Of a stretch of 64,000 nt of DNA, positions 9,834-57,462 are shown one piece after another. The notes under the pieces are model-generated. The model was not told the origin of the DNA. It ran no database searches and was given only the letters and a program-made list of their open reading frames with translations. How positions within the stretch are numbered: position 1 is the stretch's first letter; every line of letters begins with the position of its first letter. This DNA comes from Escherichia coli (lineage in GTDB: Bacteria; Pseudomonadota; Gammaproteobacteria; Enterobacterales; Enterobacteriaceae), in assembly GCF_002854065.1 (NCBI RefSeq), contig NZ_CP024147.1; one strand, written 5' to 3'. The position numbers and the translations under genes are program-made.

Positions 9834-10820
9834 GTGACCAGGACCAACCTCATCACCGGTTTTCTCGGCAGCGGGAAAACTACGTCGATTCTTCATCTGT
9901 TAGCCCATAAAGATCCCAACGAAAAATGGGCGGTACTGGTTAATGAATTTGGGGAAGTCGGAATTGATGGTGCTTTGCTCGCCGATAGCGGCGCATTGCT
10001 GAAAGAGATCCCCGGCGGCTGCATGTGCTGCGTTAATGGTTTACCCATGCAGGTAGGGTTGAATACCTTACTGCGTCAGGGAAAACCAGACCGCTTGTTG
10101 ATAGAGCCGACCGGGCTGGGCCATCCGAAACAGATCCTCGATCTGTTAACCGCACCAGTCTATGAACCGTGGATAGATCTGCGCGCCACGTTGTGCATTC
10201 TCGATCCACGCCTGCTGCTGGACGAAAAAAGCGCCAGCAATGAAAACTTCCGTGACCAGCTGGCTGCCGCAGACATCATTGTCGCCAATAAATCCGACCG
10301 TGCGACGCCTGAAAGTGAGCAAGCGCTACAGCGCTGGTGGCAGCAAAATGGTGGCGATCGGCAATTAATTCACAGTGAGCATGGGAAAGTTGACGGTCAT
10401 CTTCTGGATTTGCCGCGTCGCAATTTAGCCGAGTTGCCCGCCAGCGCCGCGCATTCTCATCAGCATGGCGTAAAAAAAGGGTTAGCAGCGTTAAGCCTGC
10501 CAGAGCATCAACGCTGGCGTCGCAGTCTGAACAGCGGACAAGGATATCAGGCCTGCGGCTGGATATTCGACGCTGATACGGTATTCGACACCATTGGCAT
10601 TCTGGAATGGGCGCGACTTGCACCGGTGGAACGCGTCAAAGGCGTGCTGCGTATTCCCGAAGGGCTGGTGCGAATCAACCGTCAGGGCGATGATCTGCAC
10701 ATTGAAACGCAAAACGTTGCGCCACCGGACAGCCGTATTGAGCTGATTTCCAGCAGCGAAGCTGACTGGAATGCCTTGCAGAGCGCGCTGTTGAAGCTTC
10801 GTTTAGCGACTACCGCGTAA
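9834..10820 (+). CDS. yeiR: COG0523-family zinc-associated GTPase (P-loop GxxGxGKT)
   Basis: 328-aa ORF with GFLGSGKTT P-loop and CxCC motif; GTG start at 9834; matches YeiR as recalled. Confidence 0.88.
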   Translation: MTRTNLITGFLGSGKTTSILHLLAHKDPNEKWAVLVNEFGEVGIDGALLADSGALLKEIPGGCMCCVNGLPMQVGLNTLLRQGKPDRLLIEPTGLGHPKQILDLLTAPVYEPWIDLRATLCILDPRLLLDEKSASNENFRDQLAAADIIVANKSDRATPESEQALQRWWQQNGGDRQLIHSEHGKVDGHLLDLPRRNLAELPASAAHSHQHGVKKGLAALSLPEHQRWRRSLNSGQGYQACGWIFDADTVFDTIGILEWARLAPVERVKGVLRIPEGLVRINRQGDDLHIETQNVAPPDSRIELISSSEADWNALQSALLKLRLATTA

Positions 10821-10858
10821 GGTTGCCTGCGTTTTTCAGTAAGATAATTAGAGAAAAT

Positions 10859-11572
10859 ATGATTAAAAATTTGCCGCAAATAGTGTTGTTGAATATTGTC
10901 GGCCTCGCGCTGTTTCTTTCCTGGTATATTCCCGTTAATCATGGATTCTGGTTGCCGATTGATGCGGATATTTTTTATTTCTTTAATCAGAAACTGGTCG
11001 AAAGTAAGGCCTTTTTGTGGCTGGTTGCATTGACCAACAATCGCGCTTTCGACGGTTGTTCACTGCTGGCGATGGGAATGTTGATGCTGAGTTTCTGGCT
11101 GAAAGAAAACGCCCCAGGCAGACGACGTATCGTGATTATTGGTCTGGTCATGCTATTAACTGCAGTGGTATTAAACCAGCTGGGTCAGGCATTAATTCCT
11201 GTAAAACGGGCCAGCCCAACATTGACTTTTACCGATATTAACCGCGTCAGCGAACTGCTCTCTGTTCCCACGAAAGATGCCTCACGAGATAGCTTTCCCG
11301 GCGATCACGGCATGATGCTGCTTATTTTTTCGGCATTCATGTGGCGTTATTTCGGCAAAGTTGCAGGTCTTATCGCCCTTATTATTTTTGTGGTTTTTGC
11401 GTTTCCCAGAGTAATGATTGGCGCACACTGGTTTACTGACATCATTGTCGGTTCGATGACCGTGATATTGATCGGTTTGCCCTGGGTGTTGCTGACGCCA
11501 TTAAGTGATCGATTAATCACCTTTTTTGACAAATCACTACCGGGAAAAAACAAACATTTCCAAAACAAATAA
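10859..11572 (+). CDS. lpxT: Lipid A 1-diphosphate synthase / undecaprenyl-pyrophosphate phosphotransferase (PAP2 family)
   Basis: 237-aa product from ATG 10859 (MIKNLPQIVLL...), polytopic membrane protein; matches LpxT/YeiU as recalled; the track ORF extends upstream from a TTG. Confidence 0.88.
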   Translation: MIKNLPQIVLLNIVGLALFLSWYIPVNHGFWLPIDADIFYFFNQKLVESKAFLWLVALTNNRAFDGCSLLAMGMLMLSFWLKENAPGRRRIVIIGLVMLLTAVVLNQLGQALIPVKRASPTLTFTDINRVSELLSVPTKDASRDSFPGDHGMMLLIFSAFMWRYFGKVAGLIALIIFVVFAFPRVMIGAHWFTDIIVGSMTVILIGLPWVLLTPLSDRLITFFDKSLPGKNKHFQNK

Positions 11573-11983
11573 CTCACAGTAATTAACATCATCAGGTTTA
11601 TTTTTATAGTGAGGATAATCCTGATGATGCGCACCGTGCTTTCATCTATCGAATGCAAAAATCATTCTCTAAGTAAATGAATGGATTGCATGCGTTTCAC
11701 TCAATCGTACTTTAATTGACCAATCCCGCTTATTAACTTTCTGTATCACTTTTTCTTATAAAAAATCATGTAAAACCGCTCGCCAAGACCGCACCAATCG
11801 GGTAATCTCGAACTCGTTTTGCCTCGGCGGTAGATTATCCTCACAGCATATAATTTTGTGCGTTAGTCCACAGATTTGGCCTTAAGGAATTGTTTCAACA
11901 TGCCCAGGTAATTAGTCTCGTGTCGCTTGGCATTTTTTTATAACGATATTTGTCGTTAAGGACTTCAAGGGAAAACAAACAAC

Positions 11984-12550
11984 ATGGTCAAATCTCAACC
12001 GATTTTGAGATATATCTTGCGCGGGATCCCCGCGATTGCAGTAGCGGTTCTGCTTTCTGCATGTAGTGCAAATAACACCGCAAAGAATATGCATCCTGAG
12101 ACACGTGCAGTGGGTAGTGAAACATCATCACTGCAAGCTTCTCAGGATGAATTTGAAAACCTGGTTCGTAATGTCGACGTAAAATCGCGAATTATGGATC
12201 AGTATGCTGACTGGAAAGGCGTACGTTATCGTCTGGGCGGCAGCACTAAAAAAGGTATCGATTGTTCTGGTTTCGTACAGCGTACATTCCGTGAGCAATT
12301 TGGCTTAGAACTTCCGCGTTCGACTTACGAACAGCAGGAAATGGGTAAATCTGTTTCCCGCAGTAATTTGCGTACGGGTGATTTAGTTCTGTTCCGTGCC
12401 GGTTCAACGGGACGCCATGTCGGTATTTATATCGGCAACAATCAGTTTGTCCATGCTTCCACCAGCAGTGGTGTTATTATTTCTAGCATGAATGAACCGT
12501 ACTGGAAGAAGCGTTACAACGAAGCACGCCGGGTTCTCAGCCGCAGCTAA
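11984..12550 (+). CDS. mepS: Peptidoglycan DD-endopeptidase / LD-carboxypeptidase lipoprotein (NlpC/P60)
   Basis: 188-aa ORF with lipobox (LLSAC) and NlpC/P60 catalytic Cys motif (DCSGF); matches MepS/Spr as recalled. Confidence 0.93.
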
Positions 12551-12596
12551 TAAACCGTTTGGATGCAATCCCTTGGCTATCCTGACGAGTTAACTG

Positions 12597-12628
12597 AAAG
12601 CACTGCTTAGGCAGTGCTTTTTTGTTTT
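12597..12628 (+). terminator. Intrinsic terminator after mepS
   Basis: Stem gaaagcactgc / gcagtgctttt with loop ttag, followed by a T-run to 12628. Confidence 0.65.
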
Positions 12629-12730
12629 CATTCATCAGAGAAAATGATGTTTCCGCGTCTTGATCCAGGCTATAGTCCGGTCATTGTTATCTTTTAAATG
12701 TTGTCGTAATTTCAGGAAATTAACGGAATC

Positions 12731-14287
12731 ATGTTCATACGCGCTCCCAATTCTGGACGTAAGCTCCTGCTTACCTGCATTGTTGCAGGCGTAATGATTG
12801 CGATACTGGTGAGTTGCCTTCAGTTTTTAGTGGCCTGGCATAAGCACGAAGTCAAATACGACACACTGATTACCGACGTACAAAAGTATCTCGATACCTA
12901 TTTTGCCGACCTGAAATCCACTACTGACCGGCTCCAGCCGCTGACCTTAGATACCTGCCAGCAGGCTAACCCCGAACTGACCGCCCGCGCGGCGTTTAGC
13001 ATGAATGTCCGTACGTTTGTGCTGGTGAAAGATAAAAAAACATTCTGTTCATCTGCGACCGGTGAGATGGACATTCCACTCAATGAATTGATTCCGGCGC
13101 TCGACATTAATAAAAATGTCGATATGGCGATCTTACCCGGCACGCCGATGGTGCCGAACAAACCCGCAATCGTCATCTGGTATCGCAACCCTTTGCTGAA
13201 AAATAGCGGCGTCTTTGCCGCTCTGAATCTCAACCTGACGCCTTCTCTCTTTTATAGTTCAAGGCAGGAAGATTACGATGGCGTCGCCCTCATTATTGGT
13301 AATACTGCGCTATCTACCTTTTCTTCACGTTTGATGAACGTTAATGAGTTAACCGACATGCCAGTCCGTGAAACTAAAATTGCGGGCATTCCTCTGACCG
13401 TTCGGCTTTATGCAGATGACTGGACATGGAACGATGTGTGGTACGCATTTTTACTGGGCGGCATGAGTGGAACTGTCGTTGGCCTGCTCTGCTATTACCT
13501 GATGAGCGTACGTATGCGCCCCGGCAGAGAAATCATGACCGCCATCAAGCGCGAACAATTTTACGTGGCGTATCAACCGGTGGTGGATACACAAGCTTTG
13601 CGAGTAACGGGCCTGGAAGTACTGCTACGCTGGCGGCATCCTGTCGCGGGAGAAATTCCCCCGGATGCCTTCATTAACTTTGCCGAATCGCAAAAGATGA
13701 TTGTGCCGCTGACTCAGCACCTGTTTGAGTTAATTGCCCGCGATGCCGCAGAATTAGAAAAAGTGCTGCCGGTAGGCGTCAAATTTGGCATTAACATTGC
13801 GCCGGACCATCTGCACAGCGAAAGCTTTAAAGCAGATATCCAGAAACTGCTCACTTCCCTACCCGCACACCATTTCCAGATTGTGCTGGAAATTACCGAG
13901 CGCGATATGCTGAAAGAGCAAGAAGCCACACAACTCTTCGCCTGGCTGCACTCGGTCGGCGTAGAAATTGCTATTGATGACTTCGGCACCGGGCACAGCG
14001 CGCTTATCTATCTTGAGCGTTTTACGCTCGATTATCTGAAAATTGACCGTGGATTTATCAACGCCATCGGTACGGAAACGATCACTTCACCCGTACTTGA
14101 CGCGGTGCTGACGCTGGCGAAACGCCTCAATATGCTGACGGTTGCTGAAGGGGTCGAAACGCCGGAACAGGCGCGATGGCTAAGCGAACGCGGCGTTAAT
14201 TTCATGCAAGGCTATTGGATTAGTCGCCCGTTACCGCTGGACGATTTTGTCCGCTGGCTGAAGAAACCGTATACGCCGCAGTGGTAA
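12731..14287 (+). CDS. pdeN: Membrane-anchored EAL-domain c-di-GMP phosphodiesterase (CSS-motif periplasmic domain)
   Basis: 518-aa ORF with N-terminal TM segment and C-terminal EAL domain (EVLLRW..., EITE, DDFGTG motifs); matches Rtn/PdeN as recalled. Confidence 0.88.
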   Translation: MFIRAPNSGRKLLLTCIVAGVMIAILVSCLQFLVAWHKHEVKYDTLITDVQKYLDTYFADLKSTTDRLQPLTLDTCQQANPELTARAAFSMNVRTFVLVKDKKTFCSSATGEMDIPLNELIPALDINKNVDMAILPGTPMVPNKPAIVIWYRNPLLKNSGVFAALNLNLTPSLFYSSRQEDYDGVALIIGNTALSTFSSRLMNVNELTDMPVRETKIAGIPLTVRLYADDWTWNDVWYAFLLGGMSGTVVGLLCYYLMSVRMRPGREIMTAIKREQFYVAYQPVVDTQALRVTGLEVLLRWRHPVAGEIPPDAFINFAESQKMIVPLTQHLFELIARDAAELEKVLPVGVKFGINIAPDHLHSESFKADIQKLLTSLPAHHFQIVLEITERDMLKEQEATQLFAWLHSVGVEIAIDDFGTGHSALIYLERFTLDYLKIDRGFINAIGTETITSPVLDAVLTLAKRLNMLTVAEGVETPEQARWLSERGVNFMQGYWISRPLPLDDFVRWLKKPYTPQW

Positions 14288-57147: not shown

Positions 57148-57462
57148 GTAGGCCAGATAAGACGCGTTAGTGTCTTATCTGGCATTTGCACCGATTGCCG
57201 GATGCGGCGTAAACGCCTTATCCGTCCTACGATTCCCATTATTTCAACAGATTACATTAAAGTAGGCCAGATAAGACGCGTCAGCGTCGCATCTGGCATT
57301 TGCACTGAATGCCAGATGCGGCGTAAACGCCTTATCCGTCCTACGATTCCCATTATTTCAACAGATTACATTAAAGTAGGCCAGATAAGACGCGTCAGCG
57401 TCGCATCTGGCATTTGCACTGAATGCCAGATGCGGCGTAAACGCCTTATCCGTCCTACGAAT
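57148..57462. repeat. BIME/REP array: three tandem 114-bp units between convergent rcsB and rcsC
   Basis: Unit starts at 57148, 57262 and 57376 (period 114), each carrying REP-like palindromes (gccagataagacgcg...cgcatctggc and gccagatgcggcgtaaacgccttatcc); last unit runs into the rcsC stop codon. Confidence 0.85.

What the first reader, a model, noticed from the sequence alone, without database searches (positions are those of the whole stretch)
11587..11629. Perfect 10-bp inverted repeat with long spacer just after lpxT, in a 411-bp lpxT-mepS gap
catcatcagg (11587-11596) and cctgatgatg (11620-11629) flank a 23-nt AT-rich spacer, 15 nt past the lpxT stop. The spacer is long for an intrinsic terminator and there is no U-run, so a protein-binding site or structured RNA element is possible. 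The long gap ahead of mepS is otherwise unexplained by my annotations.
Basis: seen in the sequence. Interest (0 to 1): 0.25.

Follow-up and report, generated by a model that had tools for sequence, protein, structure and literature searches.

The report
lpxT mRNA 3′-end hairpin, U-tract lost
The inverted repeat is real and forms a conserved RNA hairpin that marks the end of the lpxT messenger RNA; it descends from an ordinary transcription terminator that has lost its U-run, so it is a routine gene-boundary element and not a new regulator.

Summary
It was under-described. On the + strand RNA the 23-nt "spacer" also pairs, through three G·U pairs. That gives a 19-bp hairpin with a 3-nt loop (-20 to -22 kcal/mol, z = -4); in K-12 it is 20 continuous bp.

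A hairpin sits at this position, just after the lpxT stop, in about 75 of 80 Enterobacteriaceae species. It shows strong covariation and a + strand bias in stability. In Klebsiella, Kluyvera, Siccibacter, Atlantibacter and Cedecea it carries a T-run and is a canonical intrinsic terminator. In Escherichia and Citrobacter the T-run is gone.

Published K-12 Term-seq places an RNA 3′ end 3 nt past the stem. SMRT-Cappable-seq shows yeiR-lpxT and mepS as separate transcripts, with mepS starting at window 11815 and 11924.

My best reading is a 3′-end-defining, exonuclease-blocking hairpin on yeiR-lpxT mRNA. Real termination probably happens just downstream, possibly by Rho. That step is inferred, not shown.

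Three other readings are not supported: a protein operator, the overlapping promoter-like TTAACA-16-TATAGT, and the 18-codon ORF that starts in the right arm.

The rest of the 411-nt gap is conserved mepS promoter and leader sequence. Interest is low. One side observation: a Pho box upstream of mepS is conserved in other genera and lost in Escherichia.

The parts
11587..11629 (+). lpxT 3′-terminal RNA hairpin. Basal 10-bp stem (11587-11596 / 11620-11629), U·U mismatch at 11597/11619 (G·U in K-12), apical 9-bp stem with 3 G·U pairs (11598-11606 / 11610-11618), loop UAG (11607-11609).
   Evidence: structure and energy; base-pair probabilities 0.83-1.0 in a 250-nt context. (orthologous hairpins, covariation, + strand bias). 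(basal stem invariant among the sampled E. coli genomes).
11632..11632 (+). Position matching the published K-12 Term-seq RNA 3′ end at 2269627, 3 nt past the stem.
   Evidence: Adams et al. 2021, PMC7815308, supplementary file 1; score 1323; class 'orphan' because it lies 60 nt past the lpxT stop, beyond their 50-bp rule. Coordinate offset 2257995.
10859..11572 (+). lpxT coding sequence, whose transcript ends at the hairpin.
11630..11660 (+). Poorly constrained stretch right after the hairpin, with no U-tract. It is the most polymorphic part of the gap within E. coli and holds the degenerate remnant of the Pho box seen in other genera.
11693..11772 (+). C-rich, G-poor untranslated stretch (18 C, 6 G). 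It is a candidate Rho-loading region; this is inference only. Its 3′ half is a highly conserved A/T-rich block upstream of mepS P1.
11815..11815 (+). mepS transcription start P1 (K-12 2269810), giving a 169-nt leader.
   Evidence: Yan et al. 2018, PMC6131387, supplementary files 3 and 4.
11924..11924 (+). mepS transcription start P2 (K-12 2269919), giving a 60-nt leader.
11583..11610 (+). Promoter-like match TTAACA-16-TATAGT overlapping the hairpin. Judged a chance or non-functional match.
   Evidence: 10 of 12; 1 site found against 2.8 expected in shuffles. (the -10 becomes CATAGA in E. coli L085 and in L002, and is absent in E. albertii). (no start site listed near K-12 2269612).
11624..11680 (+). 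18-codon ORF (MMRTVLSSIECKNHSLSK) whose GAGG and AUGAUG lie inside the hairpin. Judged not to be a gene.
   Evidence: sequence. (1-nt deletion in L085, early stops or frame changes in L002, L003 and L004). (not annotated in K-12).

Best explanation
The repeat encodes the 3′-terminal stem-loop of the yeiR-lpxT mRNA. It descends from a canonical intrinsic terminator that still sits at this spot in other Enterobacteriaceae. In the Escherichia/Citrobacter lineage it has lost its U-tract. Without the U-tract, RNA polymerase most likely runs through the hairpin and stops diffusely in the untranslated, C-rich, G-poor stretch before the mepS promoters, by Rho or another route. 3′-5′ exonucleases (PNPase, RNase II) then trim the tail back to the hairpin. 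The hairpin blocks them, which fixes and stabilises the 3′ end about 3 nt past the stem. The net result is a defined lpxT message end and a mepS gene insulated from upstream transcription.

Shown: the hairpin, its conservation and covariation, its + strand bias, the loss of the U-tract, the mapped 3′ end, and the separate transcription units. Inferred: where and how polymerase actually terminates, and the exonuclease trimming.
For: The hairpin is stable and non-random (-22.1 kcal/mol, z = -4.0; pair probabilities 0.83-1.0 in context; K-12 allele -23.7 to -24.8).

An orthologous hairpin lies 4-40 nt after the lpxT stop in most of the 80 loci. On alignment A1, 72.7% of cells are paired, against 60.9% in shuffles and 31-47% in slid controls. 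There are 187 double-sided changes against 83, and the covariation score is 0.356 against 0.171 (0 of 500 shuffles).

The + strand fold is more stable than the - strand fold in 40 loci and less stable in 11, with 50 G·U pairs on the + strand.

About 20 loci carry a T-run of at least 6 of 9 after the core stem. The terminator scan calls canonical terminators at the orthologous site in K. pneumoniae and in L061, but not in E. coli or Citrobacter.

K-12 Term-seq has a 3′ end at 2269627, 3 nt after the stem. SMRT-Cappable-seq lists yeiR-lpxT, lpxT and mepS as separate units, with no lpxT-mepS co-transcript.

Dar & Sorek 2018 (PMC6061677) report that Rho-dependent E. coli transcripts end just after stable stem-loops lacking U-tracts. 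These protect against PNPase and RNase II, with rut sites just downstream, and terminators could switch type by changing U content. Downstream composition here is C 25 / G 15 in 100 nt, and 18 / 6 in 11693-11772.
Against: No Rho-termination region is listed anywhere in K-12 2269400-2269999 in the bicyclomycin data of Adams et al.. Low lpxT expression and the strong mepS promoters immediately downstream could hide one.

The Term-seq peak is weak (score 1323) and appears in only one of the three growth-condition lists.

The downstream C/G ratio does not differ between species with and without a U-tract (medians 1.42 and 1.50, p = 0.52), so that test did not discriminate.

No exonuclease-mutant or in vitro termination data for this site were available.
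Confidence: 0.55

Rival explanations
1. The hairpin still works on its own as a weak, U-tract-poor intrinsic terminator, perhaps helped by NusA or NusG. On this view the mapped 3′ end is the true release site, lightly trimmed.
For: It is orthologous to canonical terminators. The stem is long and stable. The 3′ end lies 3 nt past the stem. No Rho region was detected nearby. No lpxT-mepS co-transcript is listed.
Against: Only 1 T in the 8 nt after the stem, and the tail CGCACCGU is G/C-rich. By the standard model, intrinsic termination needs a weak rU:dA hybrid (summarised in PMC6061677). The terminator scan does not call it.
Confidence: 0.22
2. It is a DNA element: a palindromic operator for a dimeric regulator and/or the TTAACA-16-TATAGT promoter, driving or controlling a far-upstream mepS promoter.
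For: A perfect 10-bp palindrome. A 10-of-12 sigma-70 consensus match overlaps it. The AATTAAC that contributes the -35-like hexamer is conserved across genera.
Against: Species differences are compensatory and include G·U intermediates that pair only on the + strand. Stem length varies from 8 to more than 20 bp. The -10-like hexamer is specific to E. coli and is broken in some E. coli and other Escherichia. Promoter-like matches in the region are no more frequent than in shuffles (1 against 2.8). SMRT-Cappable-seq lists mepS starts only at 2269810 and 2269919.
Confidence: 0.05
3. The hairpin controls translation of the 18-codon ORF at 11624-11680, whose GAGG and AUGAUG are sequestered in the stem, or that ORF encodes a small protein.
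For: An SD-like GAGGA lies 8 nt before AUGAUG, and both are inside the stem.
Against: The ORF is frameshifted or truncated in E. coli L085, in L002 and L004, and in E. albertii L003. Its body is the most polymorphic part of the gap. There is no counterpart outside Escherichia. It is not annotated in K-12, which does carry validated small proteins such as yeiW.
Confidence: 0.03
4. The 19-20-bp duplex is an RNase III (or ProQ) recognition site that sets lpxT mRNA decay, and is not a passive barrier.
For: In K-12 the stem is 20 uninterrupted bp. The core sequence is letter-identical across genera beyond what pairing alone demands.
Against: The stable 3′ end lies outside the stem, not inside it as an RNase III cut would leave. 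In most genera the stem is only 10-13 bp. No RNase III or ProQ dataset could be consulted.
Confidence: 0.1

Closest known systems
Protective 3′ stem-loops at the steady-state ends of Rho-dependent E. coli transcripts (Dar & Sorek 2018, NAR, PMC6061677)
   Same: A stable stem-loop just upstream of a precise mapped 3′ end, no U-tract, mild C-over-G bias downstream, single-copy and not a REP element.
   Different: Rho dependence and exonuclease trimming have not been shown for this site, and it is absent from the Rho-region list of Adams et al.. The stem is longer and more A/U- and G·U-rich than typical.
Canonical intrinsic (Rho-independent) terminators, e.g. the mepS terminator in this window (12596-12621 plus T-run) and the orthologous lpxT terminators of Klebsiella, Kluyvera, Siccibacter and Atlantibacter
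   Same: Same genomic position and homologous stem sequence (…CAGGGATC…GATCCCTG… and CATCATCAGG…CCTGATGATG). A hairpin just after the stop codon, with an RNA 3′ end just past the stem.
   Different: The E. coli copy has no U-tract (1 T of 8), and its apical half has been replaced by an A/U-rich, G·U-paired segment.
REP/BIME elements acting as 3′ mRNA stabilisers
   Same: An extragenic palindrome in a 3′ UTR that can block exonucleases.
   Different: This one is single-copy. Its arms occur once in the 64-kb window, and the Enterobacter-type core occurs only at this locus in the 81 loci. It has no REP consensus.

Membership tests
Canonical intrinsic terminator | Stable stem-loop with a short loop just after the gene | tested here: met
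   19 bp, 3-nt loop, -20 kcal/mol, starting 15 nt past the stop. GC content is only moderate (5 of 10 in the basal stem).
Canonical intrinsic terminator | U-tract of about 7-8 nt directly after the stem | tested here: not met
   The tail is CGCACCGT, 1 T of 8, and the terminator scan does not call it. The feature is met at the orthologous site in ~20 other loci.
Canonical intrinsic terminator | Factor-independent release of RNA by RNA polymerase in vitro | not testable with these tools
   Needs in vitro transcription.
Protective 3′ stem-loop of a Rho-terminated transcript | Steady-state RNA 3′ end just downstream of a stable stem-loop lacking a U-tract | tested here: met
   Term-seq 3′ end at K-12 2269627 = window 11632, 3 nt after the stem.
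Protective 3′ stem-loop of a Rho-terminated transcript | C-rich, G-poor (rut-like) sequence downstream | tested here: inconclusive
   25 C against 15 G in 100 nt, and 18 against 6 in 11693-11772. Species that keep a U-tract show the same bias.
Protective 3′ stem-loop of a Rho-terminated transcript | Read-through on Rho inhibition (bicyclomycin) | tested here: inconclusive
   No Rho-termination region is listed in K-12 2269400-2269999 in Adams et al. supplementary file 2. Sensitivity at this weakly expressed site next to the strong mepS promoters is unknown.
Protective 3′ stem-loop of a Rho-terminated transcript | Longer 3′ tails in pnp/rnb mutants | not testable with these tools
   The supplementary tables of Dar & Sorek are not held.
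Palindromic transcription-factor operator | Half-site sequence conserved, rather than pairing conserved, with no strand asymmetry | tested here: not met
   All 17 pairs show double-sided changes. The + strand is more stable than the - strand in 40 loci against 11, with 50 G·U pairs on the + strand.
Sigma-70 promoter | -35 and -10 hexamers with 16-18 nt spacing | tested here: met
   TTAACA-16-TATAGT, 10 of 12. However, such matches are no more frequent than in shuffles.
Sigma-70 promoter | A mapped primary 5′ end, and conservation of the -10 | tested here: not met
   No start site is listed near K-12 2269612. The -10 is CATAGA in L085 and L002 and absent in E. albertii. The Cappable-seq table was truncated in storage, so that dataset could not be checked.
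Small protein gene | Reading frame conserved among close relatives | tested here: not met
   Frameshift or premature stop in L085, L002, L003 and L004.
Rfam RNA families | Match to a curated covariance model | tested here: not met
   Only sub-threshold eukaryotic miRNA/snoRNA noise (E of 0.44 or more, far below the gathering scores).

The most novel reading that the evidence does not exclude
The hairpin may not be a passive leftover. It has been kept, with compensatory changes and a near-identical core, across Escherichia, Citrobacter, Enterobacter and Kosakonia long after losing its U-tract. That makes it a natural, phylogenetically traceable transition between Rho-independent and Rho-dependent termination. 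It could also be read by a specific factor (ProQ, RNase III or similar) that tunes lpxT mRNA stability or read-through toward mepS.
Probability: 0.12. Interest if true: 0.4.

Novelty: new member of a known kind. Interest (0 to 1): 0.15.

Why it matters
It fills a small annotation gap. The yeiR-lpxT operon has a defined 3′ end that the K-12 RefSeq record does not annotate and that the Term-seq study labelled 'orphan'. It also shows that mepS is transcriptionally insulated, with its own promoters.

The cross-species series runs from U-tract terminator to U-less hairpin at one orthologous site. It is a clean natural example of the terminator-type switching that Dar & Sorek proposed, and could serve as a test case for how much a hairpin alone contributes to termination and to mRNA stability. 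Beyond that, it is an ordinary gene-boundary element.

Tried and rejected
- **Rfam:** an E-value-mode scan of 10500-13000 gave only noise.
- **Promoter reading:** TTAACA-16-TATAGT was rejected because the -10 is not conserved and no start site is listed.
- **Small-ORF reading:** rejected because of frameshifts.
- **Repeat-family reading (REP-like):** rejected because the arms and core are single-copy.
- **C/G bias test:** comparing species with and without a U-tract, as a test for a switch to Rho, gave no difference.
- **First tblastn of LpxT:** used the wrong reading frame and was redone.
- **Literature dead ends:**
  - Dar & Sorek and Altuvia (RNase III) have no supplementary tables held.
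  - The TERMITe supplements contain nothing for lpxT, mepS or the coordinate.
  - The Cappable-seq start-site table is truncated before this region.
  - Thomason 2015 is not held.
  - One literature search was wasted on non-specific matches to 'MEPs' and 'phob…'.
  - No paper linking PhoB to mepS was found.
- **MAFFT limitation:** MAFFT misaligns the 3′ arm of the four Escherichia sequences, because their apical segment is 9 nt longer. The covariation counts are therefore conservative for them.

Full report
**Locus.** The window is E. coli. The genes around the finding are yeiR (9834-10820), lpxT (10859-11572), mepS (11984-12550) and pdeN. The region is 100% identical to one E. coli chromosome and at least 98.4% identical to 5,422 others. 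K-12 MG1655 annotates nothing in the 411-nt lpxT-mepS gap. K-12 coordinates equal window coordinates plus 2,257,995, with no indel across the gap.

**The observation.** CATCATCAGG (11587-11596) and CCTGATGATG (11620-11629) are perfect reverse complements. They are separated by the 23-nt A/T-rich TTTATTTTTATAGTGAGGATAAT, and the repeat begins 15 nt past the lpxT stop.

- The repeat finder extends the arms to 15 nt (14 of 15 complementary).
- Folded as + strand RNA, the 'spacer' closes into nine more pairs, three of them G·U. The result is a 19-bp stem with one U·U mismatch and a 3-nt loop: -20.0 kcal/mol alone, against -12.9 for the 10-bp stem closing an open 23-nt loop.
- In a 73-nt context the fold is -22.1 kcal/mol, z = -4.0, and none of 200 shuffles folds as well.
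- Basal pairs have probabilities of 0.83-1.0 in a 250-nt context.
- On the - strand the G·U pairs become C·A mismatches and the apical part stays open.
- Perfect 10-mer inverted repeats with short spacers are ten times more common in this window than in shuffles (19 against 1.9). About two per window are expected by chance, so the repeat alone is not proof.

**Comparative evidence.**
- *Synteny:* I fetched the mepS neighbourhood from 80 species-level genomes of Enterobacteriaceae. In 79 of them lpxT lies directly upstream, and the gap length is closely conserved, mostly 411-426 nt.
- *Hairpin presence:* Nearly all loci have a hairpin shortly after the lpxT stop.
  - The common form outside Escherichia is …ATCAGGGATCG-TTTT-CGATCCCTGAT….
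  - Citrobacter has CATCATCAGGGA…TCCCTGATGATG, which shares the E. coli basal stem.
  - In Escherichia the apical half is replaced by a fast-evolving A/U-rich segment.
- *Covariation:* On a MAFFT alignment of all 80 sequences, a 17-pair helix is 72.7% paired, against 60.9% in column shuffles and 31-47% when partners are slid. All 17 pairs show double-sided changes. There are 187 double-sided cells against 83 expected, and the covariation score is 0.356 against 0.171 (0 of 500 shuffles). The shuffle control ignores phylogeny, but the slid controls keep it.
- *Strand bias:* The + strand hairpin is more stable than the - strand version in 40 loci and less stable in 11. There are 50 G·U pairs on the + strand (Wilcoxon 1e-6, not phylogenetically corrected). 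This points to RNA transcribed from the lpxT strand, not to a DNA operator.

**The U-tract.**
- After the core stem, about 20 loci carry at least 6 T in 9 nt. They include Kluyvera, Klebsiella, Siccibacter, Atlantibacter and Cedecea.
- Thirty-three loci, including all Escherichia and most Citrobacter, carry 3 or fewer.
- The terminator scan calls canonical terminators at the orthologous position in K. pneumoniae (L068 2107-2129) and in L061 (2104-2131). It calls none in E. coli or Citrobacter.
- The loci with a U-tract are the ones most diverged from E. coli in MepS. The simplest reading is that an ancestral intrinsic terminator lost its U-tract in the lineage leading to Escherichia and Citrobacter while keeping the hairpin. 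This polarity is an inference.

**Variation within Escherichia**.
- The basal stem is invariant in the sampled E. coli genomes. L002 has one C-to-U change that gives a G·U pair.
- Position 11597 is T (U·U), G (G·U, as in K-12, giving 20 continuous bp and -24.8 kcal/mol), C, or A (an A-U pair in E. albertii).
- One strain turns an apical U·G pair into C-G.
- The 30 nt just after the hairpin are the most polymorphic part of the gap. From about 11660 onward the gap is nearly invariant.

**Transcript evidence from the literature.**
- *Adams et al. 2021* (PMC7815308, supplementary file 1) list a + strand Term-seq 3′ end at K-12 2269627, with the flanking sequence of this hairpin. That is window 11632, 3 nt past the stem.
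  - It is classed 'orphan' only because it lies 60 nt past the lpxT stop, beyond their 50-bp rule.
  - It is weak (score 1323) and appears in one of the three condition lists.
  - Their bicyclomycin-based list of Rho regions has nothing in 2269400-2269999.
- *Yan et al. 2018* (PMC6131387) list the following units:
  - yeiR-lpxT, start 2267795;
  - lpxT alone, start 2268825;
  - mepS alone, starts 2269810 and 2269919 (window 11815 and 11924), ending at 2270620, the canonical mepS terminator at 12596-12621.
  - There is no lpxT-mepS unit and no start near the hairpin.
- *Dar & Sorek 2018* (PMC6061677) showed that Rho-dependent E. coli transcripts end precisely just after stable stem-loops without U-tracts. 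These protect against PNPase and RNase II, with rut sites just downstream. They proposed that terminators can switch type by changing U content.

**Interpretation.**
- The element is the 3′-end hairpin of the yeiR-lpxT message. I put about 0.8 on that class.
- Within the class I favour the exonuclease-barrier mechanism after downstream termination, possibly by Rho (0.55), over residual hairpin-only intrinsic termination (0.22). The 8 nt after the stem (CGCACCGT) would form a strong RNA:DNA hybrid. A C-rich, G-poor untranslated stretch also follows (18 C, 6 G in 11693-11772).
- This sub-choice is inferred. The downstream C/G bias does not differ between species with and without a U-tract, and no Rho signal was reported.

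**Rejected readings.**
- *Operator or promoter.* The TTAACA-16-TATAGT match is one site where 2.8 are expected. Its -10 is not conserved even within E. coli, and no start site is listed there.
- *Small ORF.* The 18-codon ORF at 11624-11680 has its SD-like GAGG and AUGAUG inside the stem. It is frameshifted or truncated in close relatives and lies in the most polymorphic stretch.
- *Known RNA family.* Rfam has no match.
- *Repeat family.* The element is single-copy.
- *RNase III or ProQ recognition* could not be tested. The mapped 3′ end lies outside the stem, which argues against RNase III cutting as the main fate.

**The rest of the gap.** It is not empty. It holds the two mapped mepS start sites and blocks conserved at 90% or more across genera: 11736-11770, 11795-11822, 11850-11866 and 11908-11983. 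This fits a conserved promoter and leader region.

**Verdict.** It is an ordinary, already-mapped but unannotated member of a known class. The cross-species gradient of terminator types is mildly instructive.

Noticed in passing
L005-L078, about 341-344 nt upstream of the mepS ATG (e.g. L010 2160-2177); equivalent window region about 11636-11665: A Pho box (PhoB site, CTGTCATnnnnCTGTCAT) lies between the lpxT hairpin and mepS. It has 2 or fewer mismatches in 38 of 80 Enterobacteriaceae loci (8 perfect) at a fixed position, with no comparable match elsewhere in about 11 kb per locus. A conserved (T)AAAATGA follows. In Escherichia it is degenerate (6-7 mismatches). The E. coli PhoB ChIP-seq paper does not mention mepS or lpxT, and no paper linking PhoB to mepS was found. 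This suggests mepS is phosphate-regulated in Citrobacter, Enterobacter, Kosakonia and Kluyvera but not in E. coli.
   Followed up: partly
window 11978-11980 (K-12 2269973/2269975): Published Term-seq 3′ ends lie 4-6 nt before the mepS start codon in two growth conditions, and are not Rho-dependent by the authors' score (Adams et al. 2021). Their origin is unexplained. They could reflect processing or a stable leader fragment.
   Followed up: no
window 11736-11770: An A/T-rich block, CTTTCTGTATCACTTTTTCTTATAAAAAATCATG, is conserved at 90% or more. It lies -79 to -45 from the mapped mepS P1 start (11815). It could be an UP element or an activator site.
   Followed up: no
window 12089-12152: This is the longest inverted repeat in the window (24-nt arms, 83% complementary), and it lies inside the mepS coding region. 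A strong published internal Term-seq 3′ end (K-12 2270136 = window 12141) falls within it.
   Followed up: no
window 11581-11587 and orthologous positions: The heptamer AATTAAC just 5′ of the hairpin is conserved in most genera, although the flanking 3′ UTR is not. It extends the stem in some Citrobacter and supplies the -35-like TTAACA in E. coli. Its function is unknown.
   Followed up: no
window 11597: This site is polymorphic in E. coli at the single mismatch of the stem: T (U·U, this window), G (G·U, K-12), C, and A in E. albertii (A-U). The alleles differ by up to about 4 kcal/mol in hairpin stability.
   Followed up: partly
window 57278-57444: Two near-identical copies of a 23-nt-arm inverted repeat (GCGTCAGCGTCGCATCTGGCATT…) lie 114 nt apart. 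They look like REP/BIME elements.
   Followed up: no
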